DNA of 64,000 nt from Trypanosoma brucei (taxonomy: Eukaryota). This document shows, piece by piece, positions 22,619-59,200 of this stretch. Position numbers and translations under genes: made by a program. The stretch covers positions 128,001-192,000 of the forward strand of contig CP000069.1 of NCBI GenBank assembly GCA_000002445.1, read 5' to 3'. The first letter of the stretch is position 1; the number at the start of each line of letters is the position of its first letter. The notes under the pieces are model-generated. The model ran no database searches, was not told the DNA's origin, and worked only from the letters and a program-made list of their open reading frames with translations.

Positions 22619-22978
22619 CAAGCGATAACTACATCAATGCCGGATCCATATTTCGTAATGAAATGTCAGTAGCAAAGAAAACAACGACACACATGAAATA
22701 CATATACGTGTTTGTGTGACACCATTACCTACCAGCGTGTCGGTTGTCCCTTTCTATCATTTGCTCGCAATTTACAGTGACATCATAAACGAGTCGCCTC
22801 TTGCTACCTTGACGTGCCTTCATTGCTTTTTAAGCATTGTTTTGGTTTTGTCGGGAACTTGTTATAGTATCCAACTGTCTGGAAGTGTAATCTTACTGAT
22901 TTCTATTTTACCTCTTTTGATATTCTTCCTTAGGACATAAGATTTCACACACGAAAAGTGTCACACATTACCGAAAAT
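22619..22978 (+). repeat. U5 5' flank of F2
   Basis: Matches 13207-13553 in reverse complement and 34046-34347 directly. Confidence 0.75.
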
Positions 22979-34045: not shown

Positions 34046-34347
34046 AGAAGCAGCAACGCACATGAAATACATATACGTGTTTGTGTGACACCATTACCTA
34101 CCAGCGTGTCGGTTGTCCCTTTCTATCATTTGCTCGCAATTTACAGTGACATCATAAACGAGTCGCCTCTTGCTACCTTGACGTGCCTTCATTGCTTTTT
34201 AAGCATTGTTTTGGTTTTGTCGGGAACTTGTTATAGCATCCAACTGTCTGGAAGTGTAATCTTACTGATTTCTATTTTCCCTCTTTTGATATTCTTCCTT
34301 AGGACATAAGATTTCACACACGAAAAGTGTCACACATTACCGAAAAT
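34046..34347 (+). repeat. U5 5' flank of F3
   Basis: Same flank as the other U5 copies. Confidence 0.75.
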
Positions 34348-39319: not shown

Positions 39320-42300
39320 ATTATTATGGGTAAGGGTATGCAACATGTTATACAGTGACAAGATCTCAGCAAAGGTATGTGATCCTATTATTGCAGGTTT
39401 CAACGCATCTATTACCAACGGGAAGTCGCTTCCGTGTGTCAGTGTGGCAGTTGCATATGTTCCGTCTCTGGATGACTTTGGATACGCCATCTGTACAACC
39501 AATTACGGTGATGAGTTTGCTATTATACTGGAATCTGTGGGTGACAAAAATACTCTCAACTTAACCAAATATTTCAATGAAAAGAATGCGTAGTTGATTT
39601 CTTACCTTTCACAGGATTCAGTAGGGTACACAGTTGGAATCCCAATTTATACCTCCTGGAAGCACCACTCGCCGTTGAGATGCTTGCTCTTTTCCGTTAT
39701 GCTATCACTCAGTTACGGTCACACCGACTGGATTTCATGTATTTGAAAGATGTTTCTTATGGTGATGATGAGTATAAGCTTGCTGCGTAGTTGGCAACAC
39801 GGATGAATCGCAAGTTGTTTAGTTGTTATTTTTTTGCATTGAAGAGTCAACTTGATAAGGAATCGGATAACAGGAGCTTCAGTGCGGAGTGTAATAAGGT
39901 TGCCGATACTGGACCTCAGGGAATGATTGTATTTGGTTCTCCAATCCCTGATATGAAGAGATTCCCCATGAAATGATTATATGACCACAGGACAAGAGGC
40001 GAATATTTATTCATACACCCTCTGCACTCCAACACGCCATCAAGAACAAGTGGGCATATAAATTGGGTAGAGACGAGTTTGTGGCTGCTAAGATAATAAT
40101 AACTGGGGCTGACCTAATTACGAAGGGTGACACATACAAAGCTGTCAGGCGTTTCAGAGATGATATGACTATGTTGTTAAAGGTTAATGGTAATAACTAT
40201 AAGCGCACAAGGTGGGATATTAACGAAAATAACTTCACCGAGCAAGACGCTGAAGCTGAGCTGACATTGAACAGATGGGTTGCTGGAGAGGTATTGAAAC
40301 AGGCACTGAGTTGTCACGAATAGCTAACTAGCAGGGGTGTATTTATGAAATCACTGTACAATAAACGTCGTTATCCAATTGATAATATTGTGGTTGGTGA
40401 CTTTGGTGGTGAGTGCCGTAATAAGGCGGGAGAGCGGGGTGTATCGTGTTTACGTAACCAAGGTGGGAGTGTGATGTGCGTGAAGAAGGTGGAAAAGGAT
40501 CTCCATCTGCACCCTATGAAGGAAGCTATATTAACCCTTGGTTCATCTCGCTGTTATCGAGACCTGCCACAGTTGTAGGGCCCATTGAGTGGGGTCATGT
40601 TTAATATAACCGATGACCCAAAGGCACTGCGTACTGCATAGATGGTATACGATGGTGTCCCTCATGTTGTTGGCAAAGGTCAGCTGGGTCACTCTGATAG
40701 TTTCTTTTTACACTGACTATCCTCGAAATCTTACGAAACTTGTGCAACTCTGTATAATGATGTTGAGAAACGAGTTGTAACTGCTGTGCTTGGTGTCGTG
40801 GATAATTCGTTACTACGGACGAAGGGTATGGCATTCATCGATCCTATAATACTCACATCACAACCGAGTAACCCCAGAAGGAATGTGATCCACCTGTTAC
40901 CAACAAATGAGCAGCAGTTATTTATGATAGTTGAGCATATTATACAAAATGGTGCAGGAAGGATGCATTTCATTGTGTGTCGTGGTGGTGATACGAGAGG
41001 AATTAGGAATATGTTGCAAAAACACTTGACAACTTTAACACATCACTAAGCTTCTTTGTTGCGAGTGGTGAAGGTCCTATTTTGAGAGACAAGCTGTCAA
41101 CTGCATGTGAGGTATTGGTTGTAGGTCTTATCCCATATAATATCCCCATAATCCTCTTTCACCCTAACAAACACCGTAATGCGCACGTCTTCGTCCTGTT
41201 CTTCGATGATGCACCAATCCACGGCGAACTCGTGAGTGCCTTCCATGAAGAGCCATTTTCTAACCGCTTGCTATTCGCAACGAATCTGTCACATCGGAGG
41301 GATAAGATCACGGAGTCCAAAACAGTACGTGAGTTCCGCAAGATCGTGCAGAATGAGTCGAAGTGGAAGCCGTTGTCACTACTTGGGTCTGCCATCGCAT
41401 ACGCAATGGGAAGTGTCCTGCAATGTATGGGTCGTTTGGAGACAAGTGTACGAACGAAACTTGACTTGAGGCGAAGCACTGTTGTCAACTGTGGTGCGAT
41501 GCATATTTTTGTATGGTCGATGTCACATGTTCTAAACCCTTTTGTGTCCTCTGCGCTGTCGTCTGCCACACTGTCAGTGACCTATGATGAACCGAGATGG
41601 ATCCAACAGATAACTGAGCAAATTGCCGCTATTGCAGTTGGCTTCGTCGTAATCTTGGTGCCGCTTGTTACGGTTCTTGTGGTTGTTATATTAGCAACAC
41701 ACCGGAATGCTCGTGATAACAATCTTGCACCCAAGGAACAAACTGACCCCGTGACACTAATATTTACTGACATTGAGAGCAGCACTGCGTTGTGGGCTGC
41801 ACACCCTGAACTGATGCCTGTTGCCGTTGCAACACATCACTATTTGATTCGTTCACTGATTGGGAGGTATAAGTGCTACGAAGTCAAAACTGTAGGGGAT
41901 TCGTTCATGATAGCGAGTAAGAGTCCTTTCGCTGCCGTCCAACTCGCACAGGAACTACAGCTGTGTTTCTTGCAGCATGACTGGGGAACAAATGCAGTTG
42001 ATGATTCCTACTGGGAATTTGAGCAGCAGCGTGCGGAGGAGGACGAGAAGTACACACCGCCAACTGCGCGGTTGGACCTCAAAGTGTACAGTCGTTTGTG
42101 GAATGGCCTGCGTGTACGTGTTGGAATTCACACCGGGTTGTGCGATATCCGACACGATGAAGTGACGAAGGGATATGACTACTATGGGCGGACTCCAAAC
42201 ATGGCAGCAAGGACGGAGAGTGTAGCAAATGGTGGTCAGGTGCTGATAACGCATGAGGTTTACATGTCATTTTCAGCTGAGGAGCGTGAGCAAATTGATG

Positions 42301-42809
42301 TCACTGCACTTGGTGATGTTGCACTTCGTGGCGTGAATGATCATGTGGAAATGTACCAGTTGAATGCCGTGCCTGGTCGCAACTTTGCTGCATTACGGCT
42401 GGAACGTGAACTCTTTGATGAAGACGAGGATGGCACGACAACCTCCACCAGCGACCACAGTTCTTCACGTGCGGAGCTGAGTGAATCAGCACAATCGATA
42501 TTGAACTCACTGCAGTCTGTTTTCCGAACTTTTAAAGCAGCGCAACGGGGGAGTCTTCTGGCGTCGCTTTGTGAGCGTTGGCGTGTGCCTCTTCCCCGTG
42601 AAGCTGCATTCGAGTGGGATGACGCCTACTGTGAGGAAGTGGTGCGTCGCATTGCAGTTAAGGTTGGGCGTGTCGCTGACCGTAGCGCTCAAAGTGGAAG
42701 CAGTGAAGCTTCTGTGAGTACTGAAGAGGGCTCAATCATAATTGTTCCATTCGTTGGTTCACATTTCAGAGAAGGCCACTTTGGGTGTTCGCTTCCGTCG
42801 TTACATTAG
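39320..42809 (+). pseudogene. P3: degenerate divergent adenylate cyclase paralog, N-terminal half fragmented, C-terminal TM+cyclase half open
   Basis: Fragment ORFs 39345-39593, 39791-39976, 40063-40323, 40345-40578, 40786-41049 in different frames, each homologous in order to the F ectodomain, then the 575-codon frame 41082-42809. Confidence 0.75.
41082..42809 (+). CDS. TM + cyclase catalytic domain frame of P3 (575 codons from a non-ATG start; first in-frame ATG about 109 codons in)
   Basis: TM IAAIAVGFVVILVPLVTVLVVVIL plus cyclase motifs. The tail is QRGSLLASLCERWRVPLPREAAFEWDDAYCEEVVRRIAVKVG, homologous to but divergent from the F tail. Confidence 0.55.
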   Translation: MRDKLSTACEVLVVGLIPYNIPIILFHPNKHRNAHVFVLFFDDAPIHGELVSAFHEEPFSNRLLFATNLSHRRDKITESKTVREFRKIVQNESKWKPLSLLGSAIAYAMGSVLQCMGRLETSVRTKLDLRRSTVVNCGAMHIFVWSMSHVLNPFVSSALSSATLSVTYDEPRWIQQITEQIAAIAVGFVVILVPLVTVLVVVILATHRNARDNNLAPKEQTDPVTLIFTDIESSTALWAAHPELMPVAVATHHYLIRSLIGRYKCYEVKTVGDSFMIASKSPFAAVQLAQELQLCFLQHDWGTNAVDDSYWEFEQQRAEEDEKYTPPTARLDLKVYSRLWNGLRVRVGIHTGLCDIRHDEVTKGYDYYGRTPNMAARTESVANGGQVLITHEVYMSFSAEEREQIDVTALGDVALRGVNDHVEMYQLNAVPGRNFAALRLERELFDEDEDGTTTSTSDHSSSRAELSESAQSILNSLQSVFRTFKAAQRGSLLASLCERWRVPLPREAAFEWDDAYCEEVVRRIAVKVGRVADRSAQSGSSEASVSTEEGSIIIVPFVGSHFREGHFGCSLPSLH

Positions 42810-45407
42810 TGGTAGTGTTGCACGTCATAAAGCGTACAAATCTCTTAGTTTTACTCGGCGGAAAAGTTAATTAGCATACCGATTGTAGTAGTTGTTAGTG
42901 AATTTTAACGTAGTCTCGGTAGGGTTTGTCTTTTGTATCTATTTTTATCTTTTGCCATCTATTTATTATTACATTTTTTACATTCTATTTTTGGTGGCTG
43001 CTGCCTCTGCATTAAAGCACATACTAATCTTAAGAGGGAACATGCCCTCTGTTAGATTACACATGCGTTGTCTTTCAAGACACTGAATTAACACATGCAT
43101 GTGTTTTGCCGTGTCAGCGCCGGTTGGTTTCTTACTGTTCCAAATCCGACACTTATGGAAGACAGGACGGCTCAACATTTCTTCTAATTTAACCAAAACG
43201 TTTTTGTTCTGTGAGTAATCACAAAATGGGATTAGCTATGTACTTTCCCTAAGGGCTCTCTTTTTTATTTGTGTCCTTGCCATTTGAGGCTTTAAGAAAA
43301 GTAAGGTGAAACATTTCTTTTTCAACACGTCTGTCCTTAAGCGTGCGAGTGCATGACTATTTTTTTTAAACATTCCACCTCTCACGCCCAATCCCGCAGC
43401 CTTTCGGGTACAAAACTGTGTTTCCGTGTGTGTCTGCGTCACGTTTTTCTTTTTGAATCCACTTAATGCTAGCGGTGTCTTTAAATATTTTTTCATAATG
43501 AGTGTTATGTTGCATGTGTGTATGTATGTGTTGGGTGTTATGTGGGCTGTTGTATCTCTCTCTTCGGATATACAACCCTTATCACCCTCTGCATTGATGT
43601 TACATGTTGTTTCACCAGTTGCATGCTTTTTTCCCCTTCACTCATTTGTGTTGCCGTAAGGATTTAAGGTATGCGATTGCCTCCATTCCCTCCAGAGTGT
43701 GATGTCGATGCATGGGCTTAGTTATGCACTGAAACCCGCGTTGCCTCGCAGTATAACAAAGTTCCTTCACCATCACAGTTATTGCAGCTTATACTAATTA
43801 TAGTATTGTGAGGGAGTTTTGTAACACGTTCACTCTGTTAATATTGCTGAGCCTATAATATCCTTCTGTTATTTACAACACTGTTTGGACACCCGAGGGG
43901 AGTGCAGAAATGCCGCTCCTTTATAGGGACAAACCTCATTTATCCGTATTTTGTGGTAATTCAAGACTGAACCCTTGACGTTTTAACTGTGTGATGAGGA
44001 GCTACGACGAGTTGTGGCGGGAGGGAGCGTCTACGTCGCTGCAGTGTGTAACCTCAACTGAGCATTTGGCATAACCTCTACATGCTTCCCTTTACATCAT
44101 GTGTGTTTGCGTGCATGGGCTCTGATTGTTACTTGCGCATATCTGCCGCCCTCACTTGGGGCTTTTCCCCCCATGCAGGAGTGTACGCACTGGCAGCCGC
44201 TTTGGAGTATCAAAAATACTGCTACGTGCTGAAGATATTATTTGGGAAGGGAACAAATGGAGGGAAAGACTGTCGACCTTCAGGGGGAAAGGATAAACTC
44301 ACCTGAATCGCAGCGGAACTCGTGCGGCTGCAGGCATCCAACCTTTTTCCCTCAAGGGCAATTGTTATCCCTGAGCGGGTTGTTTTATTAATTTTCCAGC
44401 CCTGTATGGCCGGAGTGCGTGTGGTCGCGATGTTTATGTAACTCCTTTTGTTACATCACTTTCCTTCTTTTGTAAACCCCCGTAGTCGCCGGACGCCTCG
44501 TGCCGCATGCGGGCCCGATTAATTTTTTGGTTTGGGAATGAGATTGGAGGTACAAACTCTGATGAGGTCCACTGGCTGATCGCTGCTGCGTTGCTTAGAT
44601 GCGTTTTTATTATTCCTTACTTCTTTCCAACGCTACGTGGAGAAGGTGTGGTGACGGTGGCAGCAACTGTTGGAAGTGCGAAAAAGAGGGCTCAATCATT
44701 TCAAAGTGGAAAGGGGCCCATTACCCGGAATTGAAAACTCATCTGATCGCGAACGGCGTTTGGGTTGCGACCAGGAAATGAAATTTGTGTTACGGTCCAA
44801 ATACGAAACTTGTTGGGTGGACCCAAGGAAAGAAATAAAATGGATAAATACATGCTCTCTGCTGCATGAGACCCGGAATATGAGGAAAATGGTGCGAATG
44901 GATGTGGAGGGTGTGTCTAACCGGATGAGTGAGTGACGACGCAACAACACGAAGATGAATGAAGGAAAAGGGAGGAGTGACAATGCATCCCAAAAGGCAG
45001 ATGATTGATGTCATAAGAGGGGACCAAGTGTTTCCGCATGATTGCGGCGTCTGCAAGTAAAGTAGGGTACAAAGGAGAAAAAAAAAGAGAAAGCGGAACT
45101 GGATGAGATTCGGTTCTTCCGTCGCGCATGTTCTTACGCCCTTCTTCCACTGCATGTGCTATGCGACATTCGTGCCCGAGGGGAAACTTTTCCCGTCTGC
45201 AAAGCGCCTTTAAGAAGTATATGAGAGGAACAACCAGCCAAGCAGCCACACAAAAGGCGAAGGACACAACAGAAATTATTAAGAGCCGAGACGCATTAGC
45301 CGAGGTAGACGCTGGCGGAAGCAAAACAACAAACAAGTGACTGCGGCACTGAAATAAGAAACAATCCAAACTCTTGCCCCACATCACACTTAAATACTTC
45401 CTTGCGA
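42810..45407 (+). repeat. S spacer copy 3 (terminal copy; departs from the consensus at 45407 and runs into the B repeat)
   Basis: Identical to 31444-34045 up to ...acttccttgc, after which the U5/F unit is absent and the B repeat follows. Confidence 0.75.
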
Positions 45408-45419
45408 AAAAGAAGAAAA

Positions 45420-45658
45420 GAGGGAAAAACAATGCGCGTAATAACAAATGATAAGTGAGCGCATGTCTTGTGACAATCATGTGGTGGCTGCTGCAGATGG
45501 GGAGCCAACAGCAGAGAACCAAATGAAAGCAAGTATCCTCTACAAAATGGAGGACAGATGAAAAGGGTTATGTGGTTAAGGGGATTCAACAAAATAAACT
45601 AAAAGGGTCAACTATACATGAGCAAATGCAGCCACACAAACACACATGGAGCATGCGA
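45420..45658 (+). repeat. B boundary repeat, second copy
   Basis: Matches 22390-22618. Confidence 0.7.
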
Positions 45659-46110
45659 TGTGAAGTTAACTGTTTGGTTGTGCCTGGTTGAGGCGTACAA
45701 ACAATTTTTTTTGTTTTTCTGAATTTTTGTTCTCTGCTTTTTCTTGCTTGTCTGCGGGTGGAAGCGTAGTGTAGGGGCTGAGAAGCAGCTAAGCCAACAG
45801 CCCCGGTGCGAGATGTGACGCAGAGAAACTGGTAGCACGCCGTTTCATCGTCAGTTATAGAGTAATCCAGGGGAGAAAAAAGCGAAACGCGCCAAGAGCA
45901 CCGCCGAGAAGCAAAGAAAAAAGAAGGAAGGGGAAAACATTCCGCAGGGGTCGATTTCCATTCTTTCGTTTCCTCCCTCATTTCCTCGCTTCTGTCTGAG
46001 TAACCAAAACACGTGGGAGGAAGTTTGCACACCTGTGCGTTTCCTTTCTATCTGTTTTTCTCTTAAAAGAAAAAAAAAACAGGAATACACCTCTTATCCA
46101 AACTCGTTCT

Positions 46111-46133
46111 CCATTCCATTCCATTCCATTCCA
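46111..46133. repeat. (CCATT)4 microsatellite in the convergent intergenic region
   Basis: ccattccattccattccattcca read directly. Confidence 0.8.
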
Positions 46134-46485
46134 GTGCCATGCGCACAAGCGCCCGTGAGAAAAGCGGGGTGCGGAACTCGGTGGACAAAGAAGTTAGCAA
46201 CGAAACAAAAGGGGGAAAATAGCGTGCAAAGGGAGAAAGTAAAAAAAAATTATGTGCAAACGAAGGGGGAGGAGAAACAGAAAACAATATCGTTGGTGTT
46301 ATGACTCACATCGCAATAAACGATGTCCGCACAACGTCACATCCTTTCCTTACAAATCCACTCAAGGAAAAGGAGTGGGGGGGGGGAAAGAAAGGAAAAC
46401 ATGGTTGCGCCAAGACAAAGCGTGGAAGGATGCATATATTTCCCACCTTCCCTGAGCAACTCATCCTTTCGTAGCCTTCATTCCA

Positions 46486-47343
46486 TTACATAATCGAGCA
46501 TCCCGCATTTTTTCCTCCAGCGCCTTCCCCATACTCAAGATCATCTCTATAACTTTTATCTGCGTTCCTTTCAACCGAACCCACGGCAGCAGTTGGCTTT
46601 ATTTTGTGCCGCTTGAGGAGATGCCCTTCAAATGCGTCAGTTGCGGGGAACTGCTCGCGGCACACCGGGCAACGGAATAGCACGGGGTTGGGGACACACA
46701 CAAAGAGAGAATCGGGATGCTCCGCGGCAAAGTGGTCGTAGAGCAACCCGCTGGCAGTGAAGCCCTTGCGGCACACCGGGCAGCAAAGAAGTCTTCCGGC
46801 CGCATCAGGCGCCTCAACTATTACCGGGGAGGTTTGCTTCAATTTCTTCTGCAACTCCTCCCGTAACTGCCGCGCCTCCTCGACCTCAGTGCGCAGAATC
46901 GACTGGTGCAACGTTTCGCGCGCGCGTTCCACTTCGGCCTTCAGTCGCCGCACCTCCGCTTCAAAATCAACAGGTTTATCCATTTTTGCTTCCTCCTTTC
47001 TTGCCGCCCCCTTTTTGGACTCATCTTTCTTTGGCGCGTTCGTTTTCCCCACACGTGTCTTCGATTCCGCTCCTTTCGACGCCTCGCCCCTCCGTGTTGC
47101 AACTCCTTTTCGTTCAGTTCGTGTTGGCGACGCATCCTTTGGATCATTTTTTCTCTGCCCATCGTTTCCCCCTAATTTGGGACTTCTTGCCTCTCCTTCC
47201 CCTGGTCCGTCTTGCCTTTGGTTCTCCGCTTCCACCCTTGGCGCTCTCCGCTCCCGTGCCGGCTTGATGCCTTCCCTCGTCTGAGAAGTGCCCTTTTCAG
47301 CATCTTGGAGGGAAATAATCGGCGATACGGCTTGAATCGTCAT
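46486..47343 (-). CDS. C2H2 zinc-finger protein (two C-x2-C-x12-H-x4-H fingers; Lys/Arg/Glu-rich N-terminal region with predicted coiled coil)
   Basis: 285-aa ORF with a genuine ATG (revcomp cat 47341-47343). Fingers CPVCRKGFTASGLLYDHFAAEH and CPVCREQFPATDAFEGHLLKRH. The heptad-like stretch EAEVRRLKAEVERARETLHQSILRTEVEEARQLREELQKKLKQ. Confidence 0.7.
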   Translation of the reverse strand: MTIQAVSPIISLQDAEKGTSQTREGIKPARERRAPRVEAENQRQDGPGEGEARSPKLGGNDGQRKNDPKDASPTRTERKGVATRRGEASKGAESKTRVGKTNAPKKDESKKGAARKEEAKMDKPVDFEAEVRRLKAEVERARETLHQSILRTEVEEARQLREELQKKLKQTSPVIVEAPDAAGRLLCCPVCRKGFTASGLLYDHFAAEHPDSLFVCVPNPVLFRCPVCREQFPATDAFEGHLLKRHKIKPTAAVGSVERNADKSYRDDLEYGEGAGGKNAGCSIM

Positions 47344-47684: not shown

Positions 47685-48896
47685 TCACGAAGCCACTACA
47701 TGCGTCACGAAGAAGTCTGACTTGTGCGAGGCATTGAAAAGGACGACGGCGTTCATTACAGGAAACGGAGAGGGTGGTTTCCGTGTGCCCTGAGGGTGCA
47801 GTGGAGGTTGACACTGCGCCAGCAATCTTTTCCCCTTTTGAACGAACTCCATTGGGACAAGTTGTTTATTGTTGCTGTACCTGTCCAGCATCCGCGCGTA
47901 ATCTTCCTCACTGACCCCATGAATAACAACGAAGTTGTTCCGTAGCGGTGTATCGCACTGCTTTCTGTCTATAGCATGGAAGCGACAACATGTCTCAACA
48001 ACGATTGTCACGCTGTCGTCGGTTGCGAGAGAGAGAACGCGTCCGACCATGATGTCTTCATTTTCCATTCGAAAAAGGGTAAGGTTCCTCCGCAGGCGCC
48101 AACTGTACGGTTTCCTAATGAGCGGCCATATCGGCTCGTACGCCACCAACATTTTGGCCATGTCCTTTGAAAGCGTGTATGGTAAGCCGGATGCAACGTA
48201 GTAAGGATCCCCGAGAAAGTTAAGTCAGATATTTCCCCAATAAACGTTCTGACACGGTAACTTGTGCAAGTCAACAAGGTATTGATGCGCATGAACAAAC
48301 GCGTCATCATCACCTTTTGCCACCTAGTTCACACGGGGTAGTAGTCGGACAGCGAGATCATACCACAGGAACACTTTGCGGCTCATAGTGACTTCCGCTT
48401 TTATACCCCGTGTACCGCCATCCCCAATTTTCTTGTTCCGTCCAGGAACACCCTCATTAATTGGAAGCGTAACCATATCCTGCCAACGCAACGCCTCCTC
48501 CTTTAGTTCCGCCGTGTACGTGTGACCGTTACGATGGGGTCGATCAGTGAGGTACAATACAAGCATCTCCCCCGTGAAGTTGTTGCTCTTCTTTGCTACA
48601 ACGTCATGGATCCAGCAAGACGTGTGAAGAATGCGCCGCCTCCGCCTCACACTCGTGTCAGGTGACAGAATACCAAGTGCAACAAGATAGTTCCGCTCCC
48701 TCCATGTTTCCACCACATCAGACGCCACGAACTGCAGGGTTTCCTCTTCGTCATCGGGGAGGACGGGGGAGGAGGGAAAACGTAATGTTTTCCTATGACA
48801 AAACTGTTTTCCCGATGTCCACGGCACACTAACAACATCGCGGTGTAAGGAAACACACGCAGCGATAAGCATCACTAGGTAGAGGGGAAGTAGCAT
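47685..48896 (-). pseudogene. UDP-Gal/UDP-GlcNAc-dependent glycosyltransferase (trypanosome GT67 / beta-1,3-GT-like) with a single continuous reading frame interrupted only by two in-frame stops (TAG 48324-48326, TGA 48225-48227)
   Basis: The ORF-track pieces 48324-48914 and 47685-48161 are in the same frame (both codon sets start at positions divisible by 3). Hand translation across the gap gives ...GIKAEVTMSRKVFLWYDLAVRLLPRVN*VAKGDDDAFVHAHQYLVDLHKLPCQVYWGNI*LNFLGDPYYVASGLPYTLSKDMAKMLVAYEP...ENEDIMVGRVL. From N to C the frame has a signal-anchor (MLLPLYLVMLIAAC), an RRRRILHTSCW (RxxxW) motif, KGDDD, Y-x-x-SG-x-x-Y-x-LS-x-D and ED-x-x-VG motifs in canonical beta3-GT order. The N-terminal piece begins at a GTG in the track; the first in-frame ATG is at 48894-48896. 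Confidence 0.7.
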
Positions 48897-51706
48897 CGTT
48901 ACCACACGACGCACATTAGTTCATTTTATTCCTCTCATTTCTTCGTGGCCAGCGAAGGAAAAAAAAAAAACGACAACGCCATGGAAAAACAGTAATGAGT
49001 CCATGCCAAAAACGTCGCGCCTCCCCAGGAGAACACGAGAGGACGTCCCGTGCCACGCACGCGCACGAAAAAACAAACAAACAAACGGTAATATGCACTC
49101 TTGTAGGGAAGTGAAATGAATATGCTCCCACACTTCTGCTAGAATCAGAATGACTATACCTACCGCTCCAACTCCGGCCGTATGGGTGAAGATGGCTCGG
49201 TTAACATACTCACGTGGATGGTTCACCAAACTTTCAGTCCCCCCCCCCCAGCAGCACAATTCGAAGTGTGTAGCAACCATTGCTATTGTAAGCGCGAATG
49301 TCTTTCATGCTGAACTGTTGACAGGCGGCATTCCATCCAGTTGTCAATATTCCCCCGTTAAATGGCCATAAAAAGGCATAATGCGCGACCCCTCCCAGTA
49401 ACTATCATGTGATCCCACCCGCCAGCGGGGCCCGCGAGCACATAGGGACCACCACTGGATTATTACATGTATCATTTCCCCACTGGACGCAGTGGAATCG
49501 GCGCCGGATGCCATGTCCATGCCCTAAAGGGAGTTTCCTCCTGAACATGAATTGTTCGACGGATGGAATGCTGAAAGAGTTTGGGGGGAATACCTTGTTT
49601 GAGAGTCTGTAGTACATGAGGGTGTGGCAGATGGTTTCGTCCCATTTTTCACTGTTTTTGGAGAAGGTGGATGTTCGATGCGCATATCGCCGGTGGATAG
49701 CACTCCGCTGTGTGGCATTGAACTGCACCACTTTAAAATGCGGTACGTGATGCGATCCGCCTGCTGTGTTGATAAATGCAGTCGCAAAGTCAAGGGTATG
49801 CTCAGTGGTTGTTCAATACGGCCGGATCTTGGAAAAGGAACTCAGAGCAACCACACACCATATAAGGACCCCTTTTTGCACCTACGCCGCTGCCATCTCA
49901 TCGCTGAGACGCTGGAGGTGGAGAATTAGCGGGCCGCAGCGCTGGAGTGCCCGCTCTCGAGCGGCATCGTGGCAGCGGACCACAAAATTACTACGATGTT
50001 ACTCTCATTTCTGTGAGAACACAATGTAGACGTAACACGCTCCCCCAGCCCACCAACTACGACACTCTCAAGTCTTGGGGCAATCTCCACAAAATGCGTA
50101 GCGAAAGCAGCGGAGAGCAGTCACCGCTTTTTGATTCTTCAAAACAGATGCATGGACTGAAGAAAAGCTGCACCAAAGTCCTGTTCTGCGCGCAACTTAC
50201 GTGGTGGAAGGCATAAATTGGCACAACAAACGCACGGAAAGTAGTATGAGCACTTCGTTTTTTCTGACTGTGCCGAATGAGGAGACATCGCATGGTGCAA
50301 ACACCGGAGAGAATAAACGGGGAAAATGTTAAGACAGCACAACAGTGACCGAGCACAGTGTTCAGAGTAAACCGTCCCGTTCGTACGTTCTGAAATTCCC
50401 GCACAAAGCGCCGTCACTGTTGCTGCTGCATATCGTAGTTGTAGTTATAAAAAATACCAAACCTGACATGCGGCGAAGTGCTCCCACATAGCCCACCAAA
50501 GCTCCTGTTTCTTCTGGCACTTCGTTCCGAAGTTGCCCTATCAGCGTACTCCGCTGAAAAATATTGTCCGTAACACAATTTTCCGAAAGGAACTGCGACA
50601 GCATATGCCGCCGAGAACACCGACAACCAGGACTACGAATGGCATTTTGCTGCGCCTGGGAAACGCGTTCTACAGCGGGAACAGCAACGTGCCGCGACGC
50701 TGCTGACTTCAAACCGTCTGGTGAACGTAACCCCTTTGAACTAACAGGCACATATCGACGCAGGTAAAGCGCTGACAACATCCGAGCATCCGATCTATTG
50801 ACATTCTATCTCTTTGCTTAAGTTACAATCAACGAGGTGGACAGTTTACAACAATAACAATGAACTATCCTTTCAACTCATGTATAGTGCTTGGTCAATT
50901 GCCTTCACTTGGTCCTTTCCACGATCTGTACCGGACCCAGCAACACACAACGGTACAAGCGGATATTTTCAATCCGTAAAGACAGTGACACTACCAGTAA
51001 TACGTGTCAGCAATATACCTGTCTTTGCACCCGCGTTACATTCCACAGTTCAAACCGTCCCAGTTTGCTGTTGTTTTCCATATATCACAGCGCCCTGCAG
51101 CAGGGCAGTGAAGAGAACGACCATCCGTGCGAAGCCGCATGCCGTCATGCTTATCTCAGTGCCCATTGTTAGTATTACTTGCTTGTCAGTCTATGGGTCG
51201 CGCGTGAAAGAAAACAGGTTAGGAAGAGTAAGCACAAAACAAGGTGAACAAGGAAGATGATCACATCGCAATTGACCTGCATTGTAGAAACACCGCCCCG
51301 TTAAAATACGCGGAGAGTGATGAAGATATTGATCTGCTACACGAAATAGAACGCTACAAGGGAAAAGCAAAAACAGAGGAAAACACGATGCGCGGAAGCG
51401 GCCTCATTCACACGTCCAATGGAGCTCTGAACAGGGTGCGCAATTCCGCAATACCCCTGAGGGAGGGGAAATAAATAGGAATAGAGGAACAAATGGTTTT
51501 ATAACTGACACTTAATAGGCTCTCACTTAGCATCTTAGAGGAAATGGATGTTCATAAAATCGCTCACATAAAAAAAAGATAAAACGAAAATAAAACGATT
51601 AGTGGAAGTTGTTCTACTAGTTGCGTGTTATGGGCCAAACGAGTATCTACCCGTATCTTGTTATGGCTTATATGAGTAACACTGCACAGCCGGTAGGCCG
51701 CACAAG

Positions 51707-52657
51707 TCAGCACACAATTGCGAGGGAAAAAAAGACGATGAGTAGACACAATTCACCACCTACACAGATCGTAATGTGCGACAAGGAAGTCAATGTCGTC
51801 TCCGCCTCTCCTTTTGGTTTGGGAGTTGCCGAAGGTTGATCTTGAGAATTTGTAGACTCCTCATCTGAATGCAAACTTTCGTTGATTACTGCTAGCTCCT
51901 CATTGGCAGTGGAGTTTCCATTACCTGGAACGGGATGCGATGGCTGTGGAACTGTAACTTCGCAGAGGGCAGCGAAATAAGTTAGTGACTTGTATCCAGG
52001 TGCCTTACCCCCGGGCTTGTTGCCAGAAACTTCGCCGCCATCAAACCAACCGAACCACTTCGTCACGTTAGTGTACCAACCCATCACGTGCAATTGGCCA
52101 TCCTGAGGATAACTTTGCGCAAAAAACGACGGATAACCACCCAATGCGCCTGAACCACTTTTATAAGTGTACGATCCCCGCCAGAATGCAACGCCGTTGC
52201 CCTCTATTCCCGATGCTTCAAACAGACCACTGTTCCATCGGTAGACGCAATTAAGGGAAGTATCGTAGTCTCCTGCTGTGCAACGAATTCCCGCGTCCTG
52301 TGCCGCACTTGCACTGTAAGTGGCATCCCCTCCAAGGTAACTGTAGATAAATGGGCCATCAGCTACACCCAAGTGGTAGGCAGTGAGGCGTTCGTTAGTT
52401 GCCTGCGAGTGGTCAGTGGCCAGCGTCCCGCCGGCTTCACGGCAGATATGCACTGAGTTACTGTAGTCTACAAGGTAATCACCTCCATGCCAAAACTTTC
52501 GGTTGGGGAAAAGAATATACTCCTTGACATAGGCAGTTGGGTACACCTTACCAAATGCGAAGAGATGTGATGAACCTGAAAGACATTGCAGCAGGGCAGT
52601 GAAGAGAACGACCATCCGTGCGAAGCCGCATGCCGTCATGCTTATCTCAGTGCCCAT
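51707..52657 (-). CDS. secreted/surface glycoprotein, 316 aa: N-terminal signal peptide, ~230-aa Trp/Tyr/Gly-rich globular region with 4 Cys (weak C-type-lectin-like spacing), acidic Ser/Thr-rich stalk, C-terminal hydrophobic segment with no cytoplasmic tail (GPI-signal-like); tandem copy 1
   Basis: True ATG (revcomp cat 52655-52657). Signal peptide MGTEISMTACGFARMVVLFTALLQCLSG. N-glycosylation sequons NVTK, NGNST, NEST. C-terminus ...TSLSHITICVGGELCLLIVFFSLAIVC. Confidence 0.7.
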   Translation of the reverse strand: MGTEISMTACGFARMVVLFTALLQCLSGSSHLFAFGKVYPTAYVKEYILFPNRKFWHGGDYLVDYSNSVHICREAGGTLATDHSQATNERLTAYHLGVADGPFIYSYLGGDATYSASAAQDAGIRCTAGDYDTSLNCVYRWNSGLFEASGIEGNGVAFWRGSYTYKSGSGALGGYPSFFAQSYPQDGQLHVMGWYTNVTKWFGWFDGGEVSGNKPGGKAPGYKSLTYFAALCEVTVPQPSHPVPGNGNSTANEELAVINESLHSDEESTNSQDQPSATPKPKGEAETTLTSLSHITICVGGELCLLIVFFSLAIVC

Positions 52658-53197: not shown

Positions 53198-54148
53198 TCA
53201 GCACACAATTGCGAGGGAAAAAAAGACGATGAGTAGACACAATTCACCACCTACACAGATCGTAATGTGCGACAAGGAAGTCAATGTCGTCTCCGCCTCT
53301 CCTTTTGGTTTGGGAGTTGCCGAAGGTTGATCTTGAGAATTTGTAGACTCCTCATCTGAATGCAAACTTTCGTTGATTACTGCTAGCTCCTCATTGGCAG
53401 TGGAGTTTCCATTACCTGGAACGGGATGCGATGGCTGTGGAACTGTAACTTCGCAGAGGGCAGCGAAATAAGTTAGTGACTTGTATCCAGGTGCCTTACC
53501 CCCGGGCTTGTTGCCAGAAACTTCGCCGCCATCAAACCAACCGAACCACTTCGTCACGTTAGTGTACCAACCCATCACGTGCAATTGGCCATCCTGAGGA
53601 TAACTTTGCGCAAAAAACGACGGATAACCACCCAATGCGCCTGAACCACTTTTATAAGTGTACGATCCCCGCCAGAATGCAACGCCGTTGCCCTCTATTC
53701 CCGATGCTTCAAACAGACCACTGTTCCATCGGTAGACGCAATTAAGGGAAGTATCGTAGTCTCCTGCTGTGCAACGAATTCCCGCGTCCTGTGCCGCACT
53801 TGCACTGTAAGTGGCATCCCCTCCAAGGTAACTGTAGATAAATGGGCCATCAGCTACACCCAAGTGGTAGGCAGTGAGGCGTTCGTTAGTTGCCTGCGAG
53901 TGGTCAGTGGCCAGCGTCCCGCCGGCTTCACGGCAGATATGCACTGAGTTACTGTAGTCTACAAGGTAATCACCTCCATGCCAAAACTTTCGGTTGGGGA
54001 AGAGAATATACTCCTTGACATAGGCAGTTGGGTACACCTTACCAAATGCGAAGAGATGTGATGAACCTGAAAGACATTGCAGCAGGGCAGTGAAGAGAAC
54101 GACCATCCGTGCGAAGCCGCATGCCGTCATGCTTATCTCAGTGCCCAT
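53198..54148 (-). CDS. secreted/surface glycoprotein, tandem copy 2 (identical to copy 1)
   Basis: Identical 316-aa translation; same repeat unit. Confidence 0.7.
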   Translation of the reverse strand: MGTEISMTACGFARMVVLFTALLQCLSGSSHLFAFGKVYPTAYVKEYILFPNRKFWHGGDYLVDYSNSVHICREAGGTLATDHSQATNERLTAYHLGVADGPFIYSYLGGDATYSASAAQDAGIRCTAGDYDTSLNCVYRWNSGLFEASGIEGNGVAFWRGSYTYKSGSGALGGYPSFFAQSYPQDGQLHVMGWYTNVTKWFGWFDGGEVSGNKPGGKAPGYKSLTYFAALCEVTVPQPSHPVPGNGNSTANEELAVINESLHSDEESTNSQDQPSATPKPKGEAETTLTSLSHITICVGGELCLLIVFFSLAIVC

Positions 54149-55706: not shown

Positions 55707-57434
55707 CTAATGTAACGACGGAAGCGAACACCCAAAGTGGCCTTCTCTGAAATGTGAACCAACGAATGGAACAATTATGATTGAGCCCTCTTCAGTACTC
55801 ACAGAAGCTTCACTGCTTCCACTTTGAGCGCTACGGTCAGCGACACGCCCAACCTTAACTGCAATGCGACGCACCACTTCCTCACAGTAGGCGTCATCCC
55901 ACTCGAATGCAGCTTCACGGGGAAGAGGCACACGCCAACGCTCACAAAGCGACGCCAGAAGATTCCCCCGTTGCGCTGCTTTAAAAGTTCGGAAAACAGA
56001 CTGCAGTGAGTTCAATATCGATTGTGCTGATTCACTCAGCTCCGCACGTGAAGAACTGTGGTCGCTGGTGGAGGTTGTCGTGCCATCCTCGTCTTCATCA
56101 AAGAATTCGCGATCCAGCCGTAATGCAGCAAAGTTGCGGCCAGGCACGGCATTCAACTGGTACATTTCCACATGATCATTCACGCCACGAAGTGCAACAT
56201 CACCAAGTGCAGTGACATCAATTTGCTCACGCTCCTCAGCTGACAGTGACATGTAAACCTCATGCGTTATCAGCACCTGACCACCATTTGCTACACTCTC
56301 TGTCCTTGCTGCCATGTTTGGAGTGCGCCCATAGTAGTCATATCCCTTCGTCACTTCATCGTGTCGGATGTCGCACAACCCGGTGTGGATTCCAACACGT
56401 ACACGCAGGCCATTCCACAAACGACTGTACACTTTAGGGTCCAACCGCGCAGTTGGCGGTGTGTACTTCTCGTCCTCCTCCGCACGCTGCTGCTCAAATT
56501 CCCAGTAGGACTCATCAATCGCATTTGTTCCCCAGTCATGCTGCAAGAAACACAGCTGTAGTTCCTGTGCGAGTTGGACGGCAGCGAAAGGACTCTTACT
56601 CGCTATCATGAACGAATCCCCTACAGTCTTGACTTCGTAGCACTTATACCTCCCAATCAGTGAACGAATCAAATAGTGATGTGTTGCAACGGCAACAGGC
56701 ATCAGATCAGGGTGTGCAGCCCACAACGCAGTGCTGCTCTCAATGTCAGTAGATATTAGTGTCACGGGGTCAGTTGGTTCCTTGGGTGCAAGATTGTTAT
56801 CACGAGCATTCCGGTGTGTTGCTAATATAACAACCACAAGAACCGTAACAAGCGGCACCAACATTACGACGAAGCCAACTGCAATAGCGGCAATTTGCTC
56901 AGTTATCTGTTGGATCCATCTCGGTTCATCATAGGTCACTGACAGTGTGGCAGACGACAGCGCAGAGGACACAAAAGGGTTTAGAACATGTGACATCGAC
57001 CATACAAAAATATGCATCGCACCACAGTTGACAACAGTGCTTCGCCTCAAGTCAAGTTTCGTTCGTACACTTGTCTCCAAACGACCCATACATTGCAGGA
57101 CACTTCCCATTGCGTAAGCGATGGCAGACCCACGTAGTGACAATGGCTTCCACTTCGACTCATTCTGCACGATCTTGCGGAACTCACGTACTGTTTTGGA
57201 CTCCGTGATCTTATCCCTCCGATGTGACAGATTCGTTGCGAATAGCAAGGGGTTAGAAAATGGCTCTTCATGGAAGGCATTCACGAGTTCGCCGTGGATT
57301 GGTGCATCATCGAAGAACAGGACGAAGACGTGCGCATTACGGTGCTTGTTAGGGTGAAAGAGGATTATGGAGATATTATATGGGATAAGACCTACAACCA
57401 ATACCTCACATGCAGTTGACAGCTTGTCTCTCAA
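55707..57434 (-). CDS. TM + cyclase catalytic domain frame of P4 (575 codons from a non-ATG start)
   Basis: Cyclase motifs present. Has the unusual substitution ISTDIESS where other copies have IFTDIESS. Confidence 0.5.
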   Translation of the reverse strand: MRDKLSTACEVLVVGLIPYNISIILFHPNKHRNAHVFVLFFDDAPIHGELVNAFHEEPFSNPLLFATNLSHRRDKITESKTVREFRKIVQNESKWKPLSLRGSAIAYAMGSVLQCMGRLETSVRTKLDLRRSTVVNCGAMHIFVWSMSHVLNPFVSSALSSATLSVTYDEPRWIQQITEQIAAIAVGFVVMLVPLVTVLVVVILATHRNARDNNLAPKEPTDPVTLISTDIESSTALWAAHPDLMPVAVATHHYLIRSLIGRYKCYEVKTVGDSFMIASKSPFAAVQLAQELQLCFLQHDWGTNAIDESYWEFEQQRAEEDEKYTPPTARLDPKVYSRLWNGLRVRVGIHTGLCDIRHDEVTKGYDYYGRTPNMAARTESVANGGQVLITHEVYMSLSAEEREQIDVTALGDVALRGVNDHVEMYQLNAVPGRNFAALRLDREFFDEDEDGTTTSTSDHSSSRAELSESAQSILNSLQSVFRTFKAAQRGNLLASLCERWRVPLPREAAFEWDDAYCEEVVRRIAVKVGRVADRSAQSGSSEASVSTEEGSIIIVPFVGSHFREGHFGCSLPSLH

Positions 57435-59200
57435 AATAGGACCTTCACCACTCGCAACAAAGAAGCTTAGTGATGTGTTAAAGTTGTCAAGTGTTTTTGC
57501 AACATATTCCTAATTCCTCTCGTATCACCACCACGACACACAATGAAATGCATCCTTCCTGCACCATTTTGTATAATATGCTCAACTATCATAAATAACT
57601 GCTGCTCATTTGTTGGTAACAGGTGGATCACATTCCTTCTGGGGTTACTCGGTTGTGATGTGAGTATTATAGGATCGATGAATGCCATACCCTTCGTCCG
57701 TAGTAACGAATTATCCACGACACCAAGCACAGCAGTTACAACTCGTTTCTCAACATCATTATACAGAGTTGCAGAAGCTTCGTAAAATTTCGAGGATAGT
57801 CAGTGTAAAAAGAAACTATCAGAGACCCAGTTGACCTTTGCCAACAACATGAGGGACACCATCGTATACCATCTATGCAGTACGCAGTGCCTTTGGGTCA
57901 TCGGTTATATTAAACATGACCCCACTCAATGGGCCCTACAACTGTGGCAGGTCTCGATAACAGCGAGATGAACCAAGGGTTAATATAGCTTCCTTCATAG
58001 GGTGCAGATGGAGATCCTTTTCCACCTTCTTCACGCACATCACACTCCCACCTTGGTTACGTAAACACGATACACCCCGCTCTCCCGCCTTATTACGGCA
58101 CTCACCACCAAAGTCACCAACCACAATATTATCAATTGGATAACGACGTTTATTGTACAGTGATTTCATAAATACACCCCTGCTAGTTAGCTATTCGTGA
58201 CAACTCAGTGCCTGTTTCAATACCTCCCCAGCAACCCATCTGTTCAATGTCAGCTCAGCTTCAGCGTCTTGCTCGGTGAAGTTATTTTCGTTAATATCCC
58301 ACCTTGTGCGCTTATAGTTATTACCATTAACCTTTAACAACATAGTCATATCATCTCTGAAACGCCTGACAGCTTTGTATGTGTCACCCTTCGTAATTAG
58401 GTCAGCCCCAGTTATTATTATCTTAGCAGCCACAAACTCGTCTCTACCCAATTTATATGCCCACTTGTTCTTGATGGCGTGTTGGAGTGCAGAGGGTGTA
58501 TGAATAAATATTCGCCTCTTGTCCTGTGGTCATATAATCATTTCATGGGGAATCTCTTCATATCAGGGATTGGAGAACCAAATACAATCATTCCCTGAGG
58601 TCCAGTATCGGCAACCTTATTACACTCCGCACTGAAGCTCCTGTTATCCGATTCCTTATCAAGTTGACTCTTCAATGCAAAAAAAAAAAAATAACAACTA
58701 AACAACTTGCGATTCATCCGTGTTGCCAACTACGCAGCAAGCTTATACTCATCATCACCATAAGAAACATCTTTCAAATACATGAAATCCAGTCGGTGTG
58801 ACCGTAACTGAGTGATAGCATAACGGAAAAGAGCAAGCATCTCAACGGCGAGTGGTGCTTCCAGGAGGTATAAATTGGGATTCCAACTGTGTACCCTACT
58901 GAATCCTGTGAAAGGTAAGAAATCAACTACGCATTCTTTTCATTGAAATATTTGGTTAAGTTGAGAGTATTTTTGTCACCCACAGATTCCAGTATAATAG
59001 CAAACTCATCACCGTAATTGGTTGTACAGATGGCGTATCCAAAGTCATCCAGAGACGGAACATATGCAACTGCCACACTGACACACGGAAGCGACTTCCC
59101 GTTGGTAATAGATGCGTTGAAACCTGCAATAATAGGATCACATACCTTTGCTGAGATCTTGTCACTGTATAACATGTTGCATACCCTTACCCATAATAAT
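55707..59200 (-). pseudogene. P4: degenerate divergent adenylate cyclase paralog (N-terminal half fragmented, C-terminal half open); copy homology ends abruptly at 59297
   Basis: Same ordered fragment ORFs as the other P copies (58927-59175, 58538-58729, 58191-58451, 57936-58169, 57467-57730) plus the 575-codon frame 55707-57434. Confidence 0.75.

What the first reader, a model, noticed from the sequence alone, without database searches (positions are those of the whole stretch)
47685..48896. GT67-like glycosyltransferase whose 404-codon frame is intact except for two in-frame nonsense codons
The ORF track splits this into a 196-aa and a 158-aa ORF plus noise. Both pieces and the 33 codons between them are in one frame. 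Translating through gives every beta3-GT landmark in the right order: signal anchor, RRRRILHTSCW, MSRKVFLW, KGDDDAFV, YYVASGLPYTLSKD, ENEDIMVG. Only TAG (48324-48326) and TGA (48225-48227) interrupt it. With no frameshifts this looks like very recent inactivation. The alternatives are sequencing errors, strain-specific nonsense polymorphisms, or, least likely, programmed read-through.
Basis: seen in the sequence. Interest (0 to 1): 0.5.

Follow-up and report, generated by a model that had tools for sequence, protein, structure and literature searches.

The report
Dead glycosyltransferase gene in Trypanosoma brucei
This is an ordinary pseudogene: a relic of a GT67 (beta3-type) glycosyltransferase on Trypanosoma brucei chromosome 6, whose first stop codon is present in all eight Trypanozoon assemblies compared, so it is neither a sequencing error nor a strain-specific or very recent loss.

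Summary
On the minus strand, 48896..47685 is one 404-codon frame with no frameshift.

The window is T. brucei brucei TREU927 chromosome 6. The frame lies between Tb927.6.350 and the IGP34 genes, inside a GRESAG4 adenylate-cyclase array that holds several broken copies.

I aligned the orthologous locus from seven other Trypanozoon assemblies. TAG-191 is present in 8 of 8. TGA-224 is present only in TREU927 and T. equiperdum OVI; the other six have TGG (Trp). TREU927 also has a private 3-bp deletion in motif 1, and two assemblies carry extra frameshifts.

TAG-191 replaces the conserved Tyr/Phe that opens the (F/Y)(V/L/M)xxxDxD donor-binding motif.

Decay goes beyond the two stops:
- 18 of 76 highly conserved family columns are changed.
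- Pfam Galactosyl_T matches all 14 intact homologues but not this sequence.
- There are 41 extra C-terminal codons.
- Isolate differences look neutral.
- No intact relative is more than 46% identical over most of its length, or 52% over the N-terminal part.

Verdict: a real, non-processed pseudogene that predates the split of these isolates. GT67 pseudogenes in T. brucei are already reported. Low interest.

The parts
47685..48896 (-). GT67 (beta3GT-like) glycosyltransferase pseudogene: a 404-codon frame from the ATG to the terminal TGA
   Evidence: frame. (E = 1e-82 to 1e-52 to trypanosome UDP-Gal/UDP-GlcNAc-dependent glycosyltransferases). (45% identity over 330 aa, E = 1e-86, to T. brucei paralogue Q389B4).
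48324..48326 (-). TAG, codon 191: the primary disabling lesion. It replaces the conserved Tyr/Phe that opens the (F/Y)(V/L/M)xxxDxD motif.
   Evidence: 12 Y and 2 F in 14 homologues at this column. (TAG in 8 of 8 assemblies). (five distinct truncated ORF variants called in read-set assemblies all end ...LLPRVN).
48225..48227 (-). TGA, codon 224: a secondary, haplotype-specific nonsense codon derived from TGG (Trp)
   Evidence: TGA in TREU927 and T. equiperdum OVI only; TGG in DAL972, IVM-t1 and four ERR79291xx assemblies. Trp at this column in homologues P0001 and P0006.
48303..48311 (-). DDD (codons 196-198), the DxD donor/metal-binding motif. It is still encoded, but it lies downstream of the TAG.
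   Evidence: D196, D197 and D198 are invariant columns. Motif definition from PMC3979372.
48612..48647 (-). Motif 1 region, RRRRRIL(Q)HTSCW (codons 84-95). The invariant Arg is replaced by His in all isolates. TREU927 also has a private 3-bp deletion of the Gln codon, between 48627 and 48626.
   Evidence: Arg in 14 of 14 homologues; the deletion is seen only in TREU927.
48036..48059 (-). Motif 3, EDIMVGRV (codons 280-287), matching the trypanosome version of (E/D)D(A/V)(Y/F)xGx(C/S)
   Evidence: E280 and D281 invariant; M283 and V284 nearly invariant. (motif definition). In T. equiperdum OVI a 2-bp insertion at codon 287 breaks the frame here.
48849..48896 (-). N-terminal hydrophobic segment MLLPLYLVMLIAACVS, the relic of the type II signal anchor. 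There is no basic cytoplasmic tail from this ATG. An in-frame GTG-Arg-Arg lies just upstream at 48914.
   Evidence: Homologues have a basic tail before the anchor. The idea that the start codon was lost is inference only.
47688..47810 (-). 41-codon C-terminal extension past the family's terminal conserved Cys (C362). Among the 13 full-length homologues this tail is 0-1 residues in 12 and 9 in P0001; the truncated P0014 does not align reliably.
   Evidence: Loss of the original stop (for example TAA to CAA at codon 363) is inference.
48954..48970 (-). Polypyrimidine tract (T12CCTTC) with AG dinucleotides downstream, the expected trans-splicing signal of the former gene. The length of the T run varies among isolates.
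   Evidence: Function is inferred from general knowledge of trypanosome mRNA processing and was not tested.

Best explanation
This is a non-processed pseudogene of the trypanosome GT67 family of UDP-Gal/UDP-GlcNAc-dependent, beta3GT-like Golgi glycosyltransferases. It lies on T. brucei TREU927 chromosome 6, upstream of Tb927.6.350.

The ancestral gene encoded a type II membrane GT-A enzyme. A Tyr codon (TAY) at the first position of the (F/Y)(V/L/M)xxxDxD motif mutated to TAG. Translation from ATG 48896 therefore stops after 190 residues, before the DxD donor-binding site and the whole C-terminal half of the catalytic domain, so no active enzyme can be made.

That lesion was already present in the common ancestor of the Trypanozoon lineages sampled. 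The locus has drifted neutrally since then:
- a second nonsense codon (TGG to TGA) on the TREU927/OVI haplotype;
- a 3-bp deletion in TREU927;
- frameshifts in the OVI and IVM-t1 assemblies;
- mostly non-synonymous SNPs.

Shown: homology, the position and reality of the lesions, their distribution among isolates, and loss of conserved residues.

Inferred: that the locus is still transcribed within the polycistron, that no product is made, and the dating.
For: Identity of the window: ORF 46486-47343(-) is exactly Tb927.6.350, and the two 316-aa ORFs are exactly AAZ11602 and AAZ11603 of TREU927.

Homology: and the alignment.

The TAG is real and old: it is seen in 8 of 8 independent assemblies. 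Five different truncated ORF variants from read-set assemblies all end at the same place.

The TGA is real but polymorphic: 2 of 8 assemblies.

The lesion sits on a functional motif: with the motif definition from PMC3979372.

Decay beyond the stops:
- 18 of 76 columns that are at least 12/14 conserved differ, against 1-9 of about 64 for each intact homologue left out in turn. These include residues invariant in 14/14 homologues: Arg to His in motif 1, S128T, T153R, W163R and R215C.
- PF01762 is matched by 14 of 14 homologues but not by this sequence. It still fails after repairing both stops in the TREU927 sequence. The repaired DAL972 sequence reaches only E = 0.08.
- It has the longest terminal branch in the family tree.
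- It has a 41-codon C-terminal extension.

Neutral pattern among isolates: pairwise pN/pS is 0.6-3 where pS is above zero; 17 variable sites in the frame give 13 non-synonymous, 3 synonymous and 1 stop/Trp change; ORF divergence equals flank divergence, about 1%.

No intact orthologue: the best full-length hit is 46% identical. In an exhaustive search with the N-terminal piece, the best non-self hit is 52% identical and is a T. brucei chromosome 10 paralogue.

Standard code: TGA terminates the neighbouring IGP genes, whose products match the deposited proteins exactly.

Literature: GT67 'predicted pseudogenes' are acknowledged and excluded from the count of 19 genes (PMC8477195). GT pseudogenes vary among Trypanozoon strains (PMC4288722).
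Against: - In six of eight assemblies a single TAG is the only interruption of a 405-codon frame. That degree of preservation is striking, although it is expected if little neutral time has passed: the simulation gives P(at most 1 stop) above 0.4 up to 5% divergence.
- The isolate comparison has few substitutions, so pN/pS near 1 is weak evidence.
- Only eight assemblies were compared, and four come from one series of read sets of unknown taxon. An intact allele could still segregate elsewhere or be hidden in a collapsed heterozygous site.
- The excess of changes at conserved sites could partly reflect an old, divergent but once functional lineage rather than decay after inactivation.
- I could not see the record's own annotation.
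Confidence: 0.92

Rival explanations
1. The gene is intact and the two stops are sequencing or assembly errors in the TREU927 reference.
For: None found. The only thing in its favour is the absence of frameshifts in this window.
Against: TAG-191 is present in 8 of 8 independently produced assemblies. TGA-224 is also present in T. equiperdum OVI. Gene callers on read-set assemblies produced 194-197-aa ORFs ending at the same TAG.
Confidence: 0.01
2. The stops are strain-specific nonsense polymorphisms, and functional alleles of the gene persist in other T. brucei populations.
For: This holds for the second stop: TGG in 6 of 8 assemblies. Apart from the TAG, the frame is open in six assemblies.
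Against: No assembly has a sense codon at position 191. Replacements of invariant residues (Arg to His in motif 1, T153R, W163R, S128T) are shared by all isolates. No intact product is in the protein collections.
Confidence: 0.03
3. The stops are read through (programmed read-through or suppression), yielding a full-length enzyme.
For: The long open frame downstream of the TAG. The second stop has a UGA-C context, which is known to be leaky in eukaryotes (general knowledge).
Against: - TAG is followed by G, an efficient termination context (general knowledge).
- The stop sits on a residue conserved as Tyr/Phe.
- Downstream differences among isolates are 5 non-synonymous, 1 synonymous and 1 nonsense, and two assemblies carry frameshifts.
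- Invariant family residues are lost.
- TGA is a normal terminator in neighbouring genes.
- T. brucei is not known to reassign stops (general knowledge).
Confidence: 0.02
4. The 190-aa N-terminal product (anchor, stem and the first third of the GT-A domain) is made and retained for a non-catalytic role.
For: An ATG, a hydrophobic anchor and an upstream polypyrimidine/AG signal are still present. The fragment is the same length in all isolates.
Against: - Within codons 1-190, isolates differ at 8 non-synonymous and 2 synonymous sites plus a 3-bp indel, so there is no sign of constraint.
- IVM-t1 has two 1-bp deletions in this part.
- A third of a Rossmann-like GT-A domain is unlikely to fold (inference).
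- There is no basic cytoplasmic tail from this ATG.
Confidence: 0.03

Closest known systems
T. brucei GT67 family of UDP-Gal/UDP-GlcNAc-dependent glycosyltransferases (TbGT3, TbGT8, TbGT10, TbGT11/GnTI, TbGT15/GnTII; CAZy GT67; beta3GT superfamily)
   Same: Clear sequence homology: 45% identity over 330 aa to the chromosome 10 paralogue Q389B4 (E = 1e-86) and 41% to the chromosome 7 paralogue Q57U24. It has the same order of anchor, stem, motif 1, DxD motif and ED motif, and the conserved terminal Cys.
   Different: - The reading frame is broken.
- The invariant Arg of motif 1, and W163, T153 and S128, are replaced.
- There is a 41-codon C-terminal tail.
- There is no Pfam PF01762 match.
- It is an orphan lineage with the longest branch in the tree and is not a recent copy of any intact paralogue.
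Predicted GT67 pseudogenes of Trypanozoon genomes (mentioned in PMC8477195 and PMC4288722)
   Same: Same family, same organism group and same kind of feature. The literature counts 21 family genes (PMC3979372) but 19 'excluding predicted pseudogenes' (PMC8477195).
   Different: Those papers describe GT genes and pseudogenes as typically subtelomeric and variable in presence among strains. This one is single-copy, lies at a fixed position next to Tb927.6.350, and was found in all eight assemblies. I could not confirm that this exact locus is one of the pseudogenes those papers refer to.
Mammalian beta1,3-glycosyltransferases (CAZy GT31; Pfam PF01762 Galactosyl_T), e.g. B3GALT6
   Same: The family profile built from this sequence and its 14 homologues reaches B3GALT6 (PDB 9sp7) around the DxD region, but only weakly (E = 0.014). 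The three beta3GT motifs are recognisable.
   Different: The relationship is very distant. The sequence itself does not reach PF01762 at all.

Membership tests
GT67 / trypanosome beta3GT-like glycosyltransferases | Significant full-length sequence similarity to named family members | tested here: met
   (E = 1e-82 to 1e-52; 14 hits, those with a source name being glycosyltransferases/hexosyltransferases apart from a few generic labels). (E = 1e-86 to T. brucei Q389B4).
GT67 / trypanosome beta3GT-like glycosyltransferases | Motif 1, (I/L)RxxWG-like (trypanosome form RRRRxLQRxTCW) | tested here: not met
   The Arg that is invariant in 14 of 14 homologues is His in all isolates. TREU927 additionally lacks the Gln codon. 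The rest of the motif is recognisable.
GT67 / trypanosome beta3GT-like glycosyltransferases | Motif 2, (F/Y)(V/L/M)xxxDxD | tested here: not met
   VAKGDDD is present, but the F/Y position is the TAG stop in 8 of 8 assemblies.
GT67 / trypanosome beta3GT-like glycosyltransferases | Motif 3, (E/D)D(A/V)(Y/F)xGx(C/S) | tested here: met
   EDIMVGRV equals the consensus of the trypanosome homologues, EDIMVGRVL.
GT67 / trypanosome beta3GT-like glycosyltransferases | Type II membrane topology with a short basic cytoplasmic tail | tested here: inconclusive
   A hydrophobic segment is present at residues 1-16, but there is no tail from ATG 48896. Arg-Arg is encoded upstream after an in-frame GTG. No topology predictor was run.
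GT67 / trypanosome beta3GT-like glycosyltransferases | Uninterrupted coding sequence (functional member) | tested here: not met
   Two in-frame stops here, and at least one in every assembly.
Pfam PF01762 Galactosyl_T (GT31-type) | Match to the family HMM | tested here: not met
   No match at E <= 10, even with both stops repaired in the TREU927 sequence. The repaired DAL972 sequence scores E = 0.08, 13.2 bits, against a cut-off of 23. All 14 homologues match at E <= 1, the best at 7e-9.
Non-processed (unitary) pseudogene | Homology to a functional gene family plus disabling lesions that are real, not errors | tested here: met
Non-processed (unitary) pseudogene | Neutral evolution (dN/dS about 1; further lesions accumulating) | tested here: inconclusive
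   Pairwise pN/pS is 0.6-3 where pS is above zero. ORF and flanks both diverge by about 1%. There are extra lesions specific to a lineage or an assembly. Only 17 variable sites were available, so power is low.
Non-processed (unitary) pseudogene | No functional protein product | not testable with these tools
   This needs ribosome profiling or proteomics.

The most novel reading that the evidence does not exclude
The locus is not fully dead. In the common haplotype, which has a single TAG and an otherwise open 405-codon frame, low-level read-through or the 190-residue membrane-anchored stub might give a non-catalytic product, for example a partner or decoy for other GT67 enzymes in the Golgi. 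Preservation of the frame would then not be only a matter of recency.
Probability: 0.03. Interest if true: 0.4.

Novelty: already known. Interest (0 to 1): 0.08.

Why it matters
It matters little beyond bookkeeping. This GT67 lineage should not be counted among the functional glycosyltransferases when T. brucei glycan linkages are assigned to genes.

The locus gives a small, clean example of stepwise decay: a fixed primary nonsense mutation in the DxD motif, followed by secondary lesions specific to a haplotype or an assembly. The TGA/TGG site with its linked SNPs marks two haplotype groups. The two T. equiperdum assemblies fall on different sides of that split.

Tried and rejected
- Exact look-ups of the TREU927 proteins (Tb927.6.350 and IGP) for encoding contigs found nothing on record. 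I got the orthologous loci through the near-identical T. equiperdum, T. b. gambiense and Logan variants instead.
- Synteny test in T. vivax: the two best T. vivax homologues (P0001, P0003) sit in unrelated neighbourhoods, so no syntenic intact orthologue was identified. The T. congolense hits have no contig on record.
I used the 190-aa N-terminal ORF instead.
- The ZnF comparison with DAL972 is misaligned (the gene is partial at the contig start) and was discarded.
- Selenocysteine at the TGA was rejected, because the ancestral and majority codon is TGG.
- A literature search for the probable locus tag Tb927.6.360 found nothing. Izquierdo et al. 2009, which lists the 21 family genes, is not held. 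No supplement is held for PMC8477195.
- No tRNA gene and no Rfam family were found in the window.

Full report
**1. The observation.**

ATG is at 48896-48894 and the terminal TGA at 47687-47685, giving 1212 nt = 404 codons in one frame. The frame contains exactly two internal stops: TAG at 48326-48324 (codon 191) and TGA at 48227-48225 (codon 224). The mechanical ORF list breaks this into a 196-aa ORF (from an upstream in-frame GTG at 48914), a 32-aa ORF and a 158-aa ORF. All the quoted motif strings are present and in order. There are 32 sense codons between the stops, not 33.

**2. Where we are.**

The neighbouring 285-aa ORF (46486-47343, minus strand) is identical to Tb927.6.350 of Trypanosoma brucei brucei TREU927. 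The two identical 316-aa ORFs (51707-52657 and 53198-54148) are identical to AAZ11602 and AAZ11603 of the same chromosome, which is 1,618,915 bp long. These two carry the IGP C-type-lectin domain; IGP34 is Tb927.6.380 in PMC4497807.

The rest of the window is a GRESAG4 receptor adenylate-cyclase array. It holds three complete copies, one copy cut by the window edge, and four more divergent copies broken over several frames. The glycosyltransferase frame and Tb927.6.350 are the last units of a minus-strand gene cluster that ends at a convergent strand switch.

**3. What the frame is.**

[quoted passage not shown] The best identities are only 41-46%.

An exhaustive HMMER search of 1.84 billion representatives with the 190-aa N-terminal piece gave two kinds of result:
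- A near-identical 197-aa truncated ORF.
- T. brucei's own paralogues at 52% or less. These include Q389B4, whose 4.05-Mb contig I take to be chromosome 10; an AAZ11016/18/20 group, apparently an array, on a 1.59-Mb chromosome; and Q57U24 on a 2.2-Mb chromosome.

Full-length identity to Q389B4 is 45% over 330 aa (E = 1e-86). In a neighbour-joining tree of the catalytic region, the sequence is an orphan inside the African-trypanosome group and has the longest terminal branch (0.30, against 0.03-0.24 for the others). It is therefore a distinct GT67 lineage with no intact representative in the collections, not a recent copy of a working paralogue. The two best T. vivax hits lie in unrelated gene neighbourhoods.

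**4. Are the stops real, and how old are they?**

I retrieved the orthologous locus from these assemblies:
- T. equiperdum IVM-t1 (L001), T. equiperdum OVI (L002) and T. b. gambiense DAL972 (L004);
- four assemblies of public read sets, ERR7929156, ERR7929159, ERR7929161 and ERR7929162 (L011-L014).

The alignment shows the following:
- TAG at codon 191 is present in all eight assemblies.
- TGA at codon 224 is present only in TREU927 and OVI. The other six have TGG (Trp), the residue that two homologues also carry at that column.
- TREU927 has a private 3-bp deletion that removes the Gln of RRRRRILQHTSCW.
- OVI has a 2-bp insertion at codon 287.
- IVM-t1 has two 1-bp deletions at codons 33 and 46. 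These sit at short runs of one base and might be long-read errors.

In five of the eight assemblies the TAG is the only lesion. Five distinct protein variants called by others on read-set assemblies all end ...LLPRVN, at the same TAG.

Both stops are therefore genuine. The TAG is ancestral to all sampled Trypanozoon lineages, and the TGA is a later lesion on one haplotype. That haplotype is also marked by linked SNPs at codons 120, 215, 239, 367 and 368.

**5. Where the TAG sits, and how decayed the rest is.**

In the alignment with 14 intact homologues, codon 191 falls on a column that is Tyr in 12 and Phe in 2. This is the first position of the beta3GT motif (F/Y)(V/L/M)xxxDxD, as defined for this family in PMC3979372. 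A single TAY-to-TAG change explains it. Translation from ATG 48896 would stop five codons before the DDD, so the product would lack the donor-binding motif and the whole distal half of the domain.

The damage goes beyond the stops:
- **Conserved columns:** the sequence differs at 18 of the 76 columns that are conserved in at least 12 of 14 homologues. Intact homologues left out in turn differ at 1-9 of about 64. The changes include residues invariant in all 14: Arg to His in motif 1, S128T, T153R and W163R in all isolates, and R215C on the TREU927/OVI haplotype.
- **Pfam:** Galactosyl_T (PF01762) is matched by all 14 homologues (E <= 1; best 7e-9) but not by this sequence. It still fails with both stops repaired in the TREU927 sequence. 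The repaired DAL972 version reaches only E = 0.08.
- **C-terminus:** the frame runs 41 codons past the terminal conserved Cys. In the 13 full-length homologues that tail is at most 9 residues, and 0-1 in 12 of them.
- **N-terminus:** from ATG 48896 there is no basic cytoplasmic tail. Arg-Arg is encoded just upstream, after an in-frame GTG.

The last two points suggest that the original stop and start codons may also have changed. That is inference.

**6. Mode of evolution and dating.**

Among the eight sequences the frame has 17 variable sites: 13 non-synonymous, 3 synonymous and 1 stop/Trp. Pairwise pN/pS is 0.6-3 where pS is above zero. Divergence in the frame (about 1%) equals that of the non-coding flanks. 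The N-terminal 190 codons (8 non-synonymous, 2 synonymous, plus an indel) look no more constrained than the rest. This fits neutrality, but with few sites.

A simulation of neutral substitutions on the repaired frame gives a mean of one stop at about 2-3% divergence. P(at most one stop) is 0.42 at 5%, 0.11 at 10% and 0.04 at 15%. An ancestor carrying one stop and no frameshift is thus what a few percent of neutral divergence before the isolates' common ancestor would produce.

The inactivation is therefore recent on the scale of trypanosome species, but older than the Trypanozoon lineages sampled. It is not strain-specific. The excess of changes at conserved columns is somewhat larger than so short a neutral period predicts. 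This suggests relaxed constraint or functional drift before the TAG arose (inference).

**7. Rival readings.**

- **Sequencing error.** Excluded (paragraph 4).
- **A segregating functional allele.** Not seen in eight assemblies, and the motif-1 and other invariant-residue replacements are shared by all. A large panel was not available.
- **Read-through.** The points against it are:
  - TAG-G is an efficient termination context (general knowledge).
  - The stop lies on a conserved Tyr/Phe.
  - Downstream changes among isolates include a nonsense codon and frameshifts.
  - TGA terminates the neighbouring IGP genes, whose products match the deposited proteins exactly.
- **Selenocysteine at the TGA.** Excluded by the TGG majority.
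- **A functional 190-aa stub.** Not excluded, but nothing supports it.

**8. Comparison with what is known.**

The T. brucei GT67 family is well described. PMC3979372 counts 21 genes, and PMC8477195 counts 19 'excluding predicted pseudogenes'. GT pseudogenes are noted to vary among Trypanozoon strains (PMC4288722).

The locus-tag numbering points to an existing annotation. Tb927.6.350 is XP_845160, and the next two protein accessions are the IGP genes. Tb927.6.370 is listed in PMC7952579 as a conserved hypothetical protein, and Tb927.6.380 is IGP34. That leaves Tb927.6.360 without a protein, exactly where this frame lies. It is therefore probably already annotated as a pseudogene. I could not verify this: no paper held mentions the tag.

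**9. Verdict.**

This is a real feature, correctly seen, but ordinary: a GT67 pseudogene shared by all eight Trypanozoon assemblies compared.

Noticed in passing
window 4796-8282 (-), 28222-31383 (+), 39590-42749 (+), 55767-58930 (-): Four GRESAG4-like adenylate-cyclase copies match the intact copies at only about 55% in the catalytic half and 25-34% in the extracellular part. Each is split over several reading frames, so they are probably pseudogenes. They alternate with intact 1275-1280-aa GRESAG4 ORFs at 9385-13227 (-), 22958-26797 (+) and 34327-38154 (+), plus a copy cut by the window edge at 2-1840 (-).
   Followed up: partly
window 13228-22957: About 9.7 kb without any ORF of 150 aa or more lies between two head-to-head GRESAG4 genes that are 96% identical. 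GC skew changes sign here. It looks like a divergent strand-switch (transcription start) region.
   Followed up: no
window ~42810-46485: This is a convergent strand-switch region between the plus-strand GRESAG4 cluster and the minus-strand cluster that ends with the GT relic and Tb927.6.350. It holds a 201-aa ORF (44917-45522, -) with no Pfam match. No tRNA genes are present.
   Followed up: no
window 51707-52657 and 53198-54148 (-): Two identical 316-aa IGP34-type genes (DUF5075 C-type-lectin domain) lie in tandem. The T. equiperdum and T. b. gambiense counterparts differ in length (227 and 329 aa).
   Followed up: no
window 48959-48971; L001, L002, L004, L011-L014: The T run of the polypyrimidine tract upstream of the GT frame differs in length among the isolates: 9 T in five assemblies (OVI and the four read-set assemblies), 11 in DAL972, 12 in TREU927 and 14 in IVM-t1.
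   Followed up: no
L001 (T. equiperdum IVM-t1) versus L002 (T. equiperdum OVI): The two T. equiperdum assemblies carry different haplotypes at this locus. OVI groups with TREU927 (TGA-224, C215, P120, P239). IVM-t1 groups with T. b. gambiense DAL972 and the four read-set assemblies. This fits separate origins of these strains.
   Followed up: no
L004 (T. b. gambiense DAL972, FN554969.1 positions 1-6807): The DAL972 chromosome 6 record starts inside the Tb927.6.350 orthologue. That protein is accordingly annotated as partial (269 aa), and the GRESAG4 array seen in this window is not part of that record's chromosome end.
   Followed up: no
window 48897-48923 (-): Upstream of ATG 48896 the frame stays open back to a TGA at 48923-48921 and contains GTG-CGT-CGT (Val/Met-Arg-Arg) at 48914. 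If the GTG was once ATG, it would give the dibasic cytoplasmic tail typical of Golgi type II transferases. An out-of-frame ATG at 48916 opens a 5-codon mini-ORF.
   Followed up: partly
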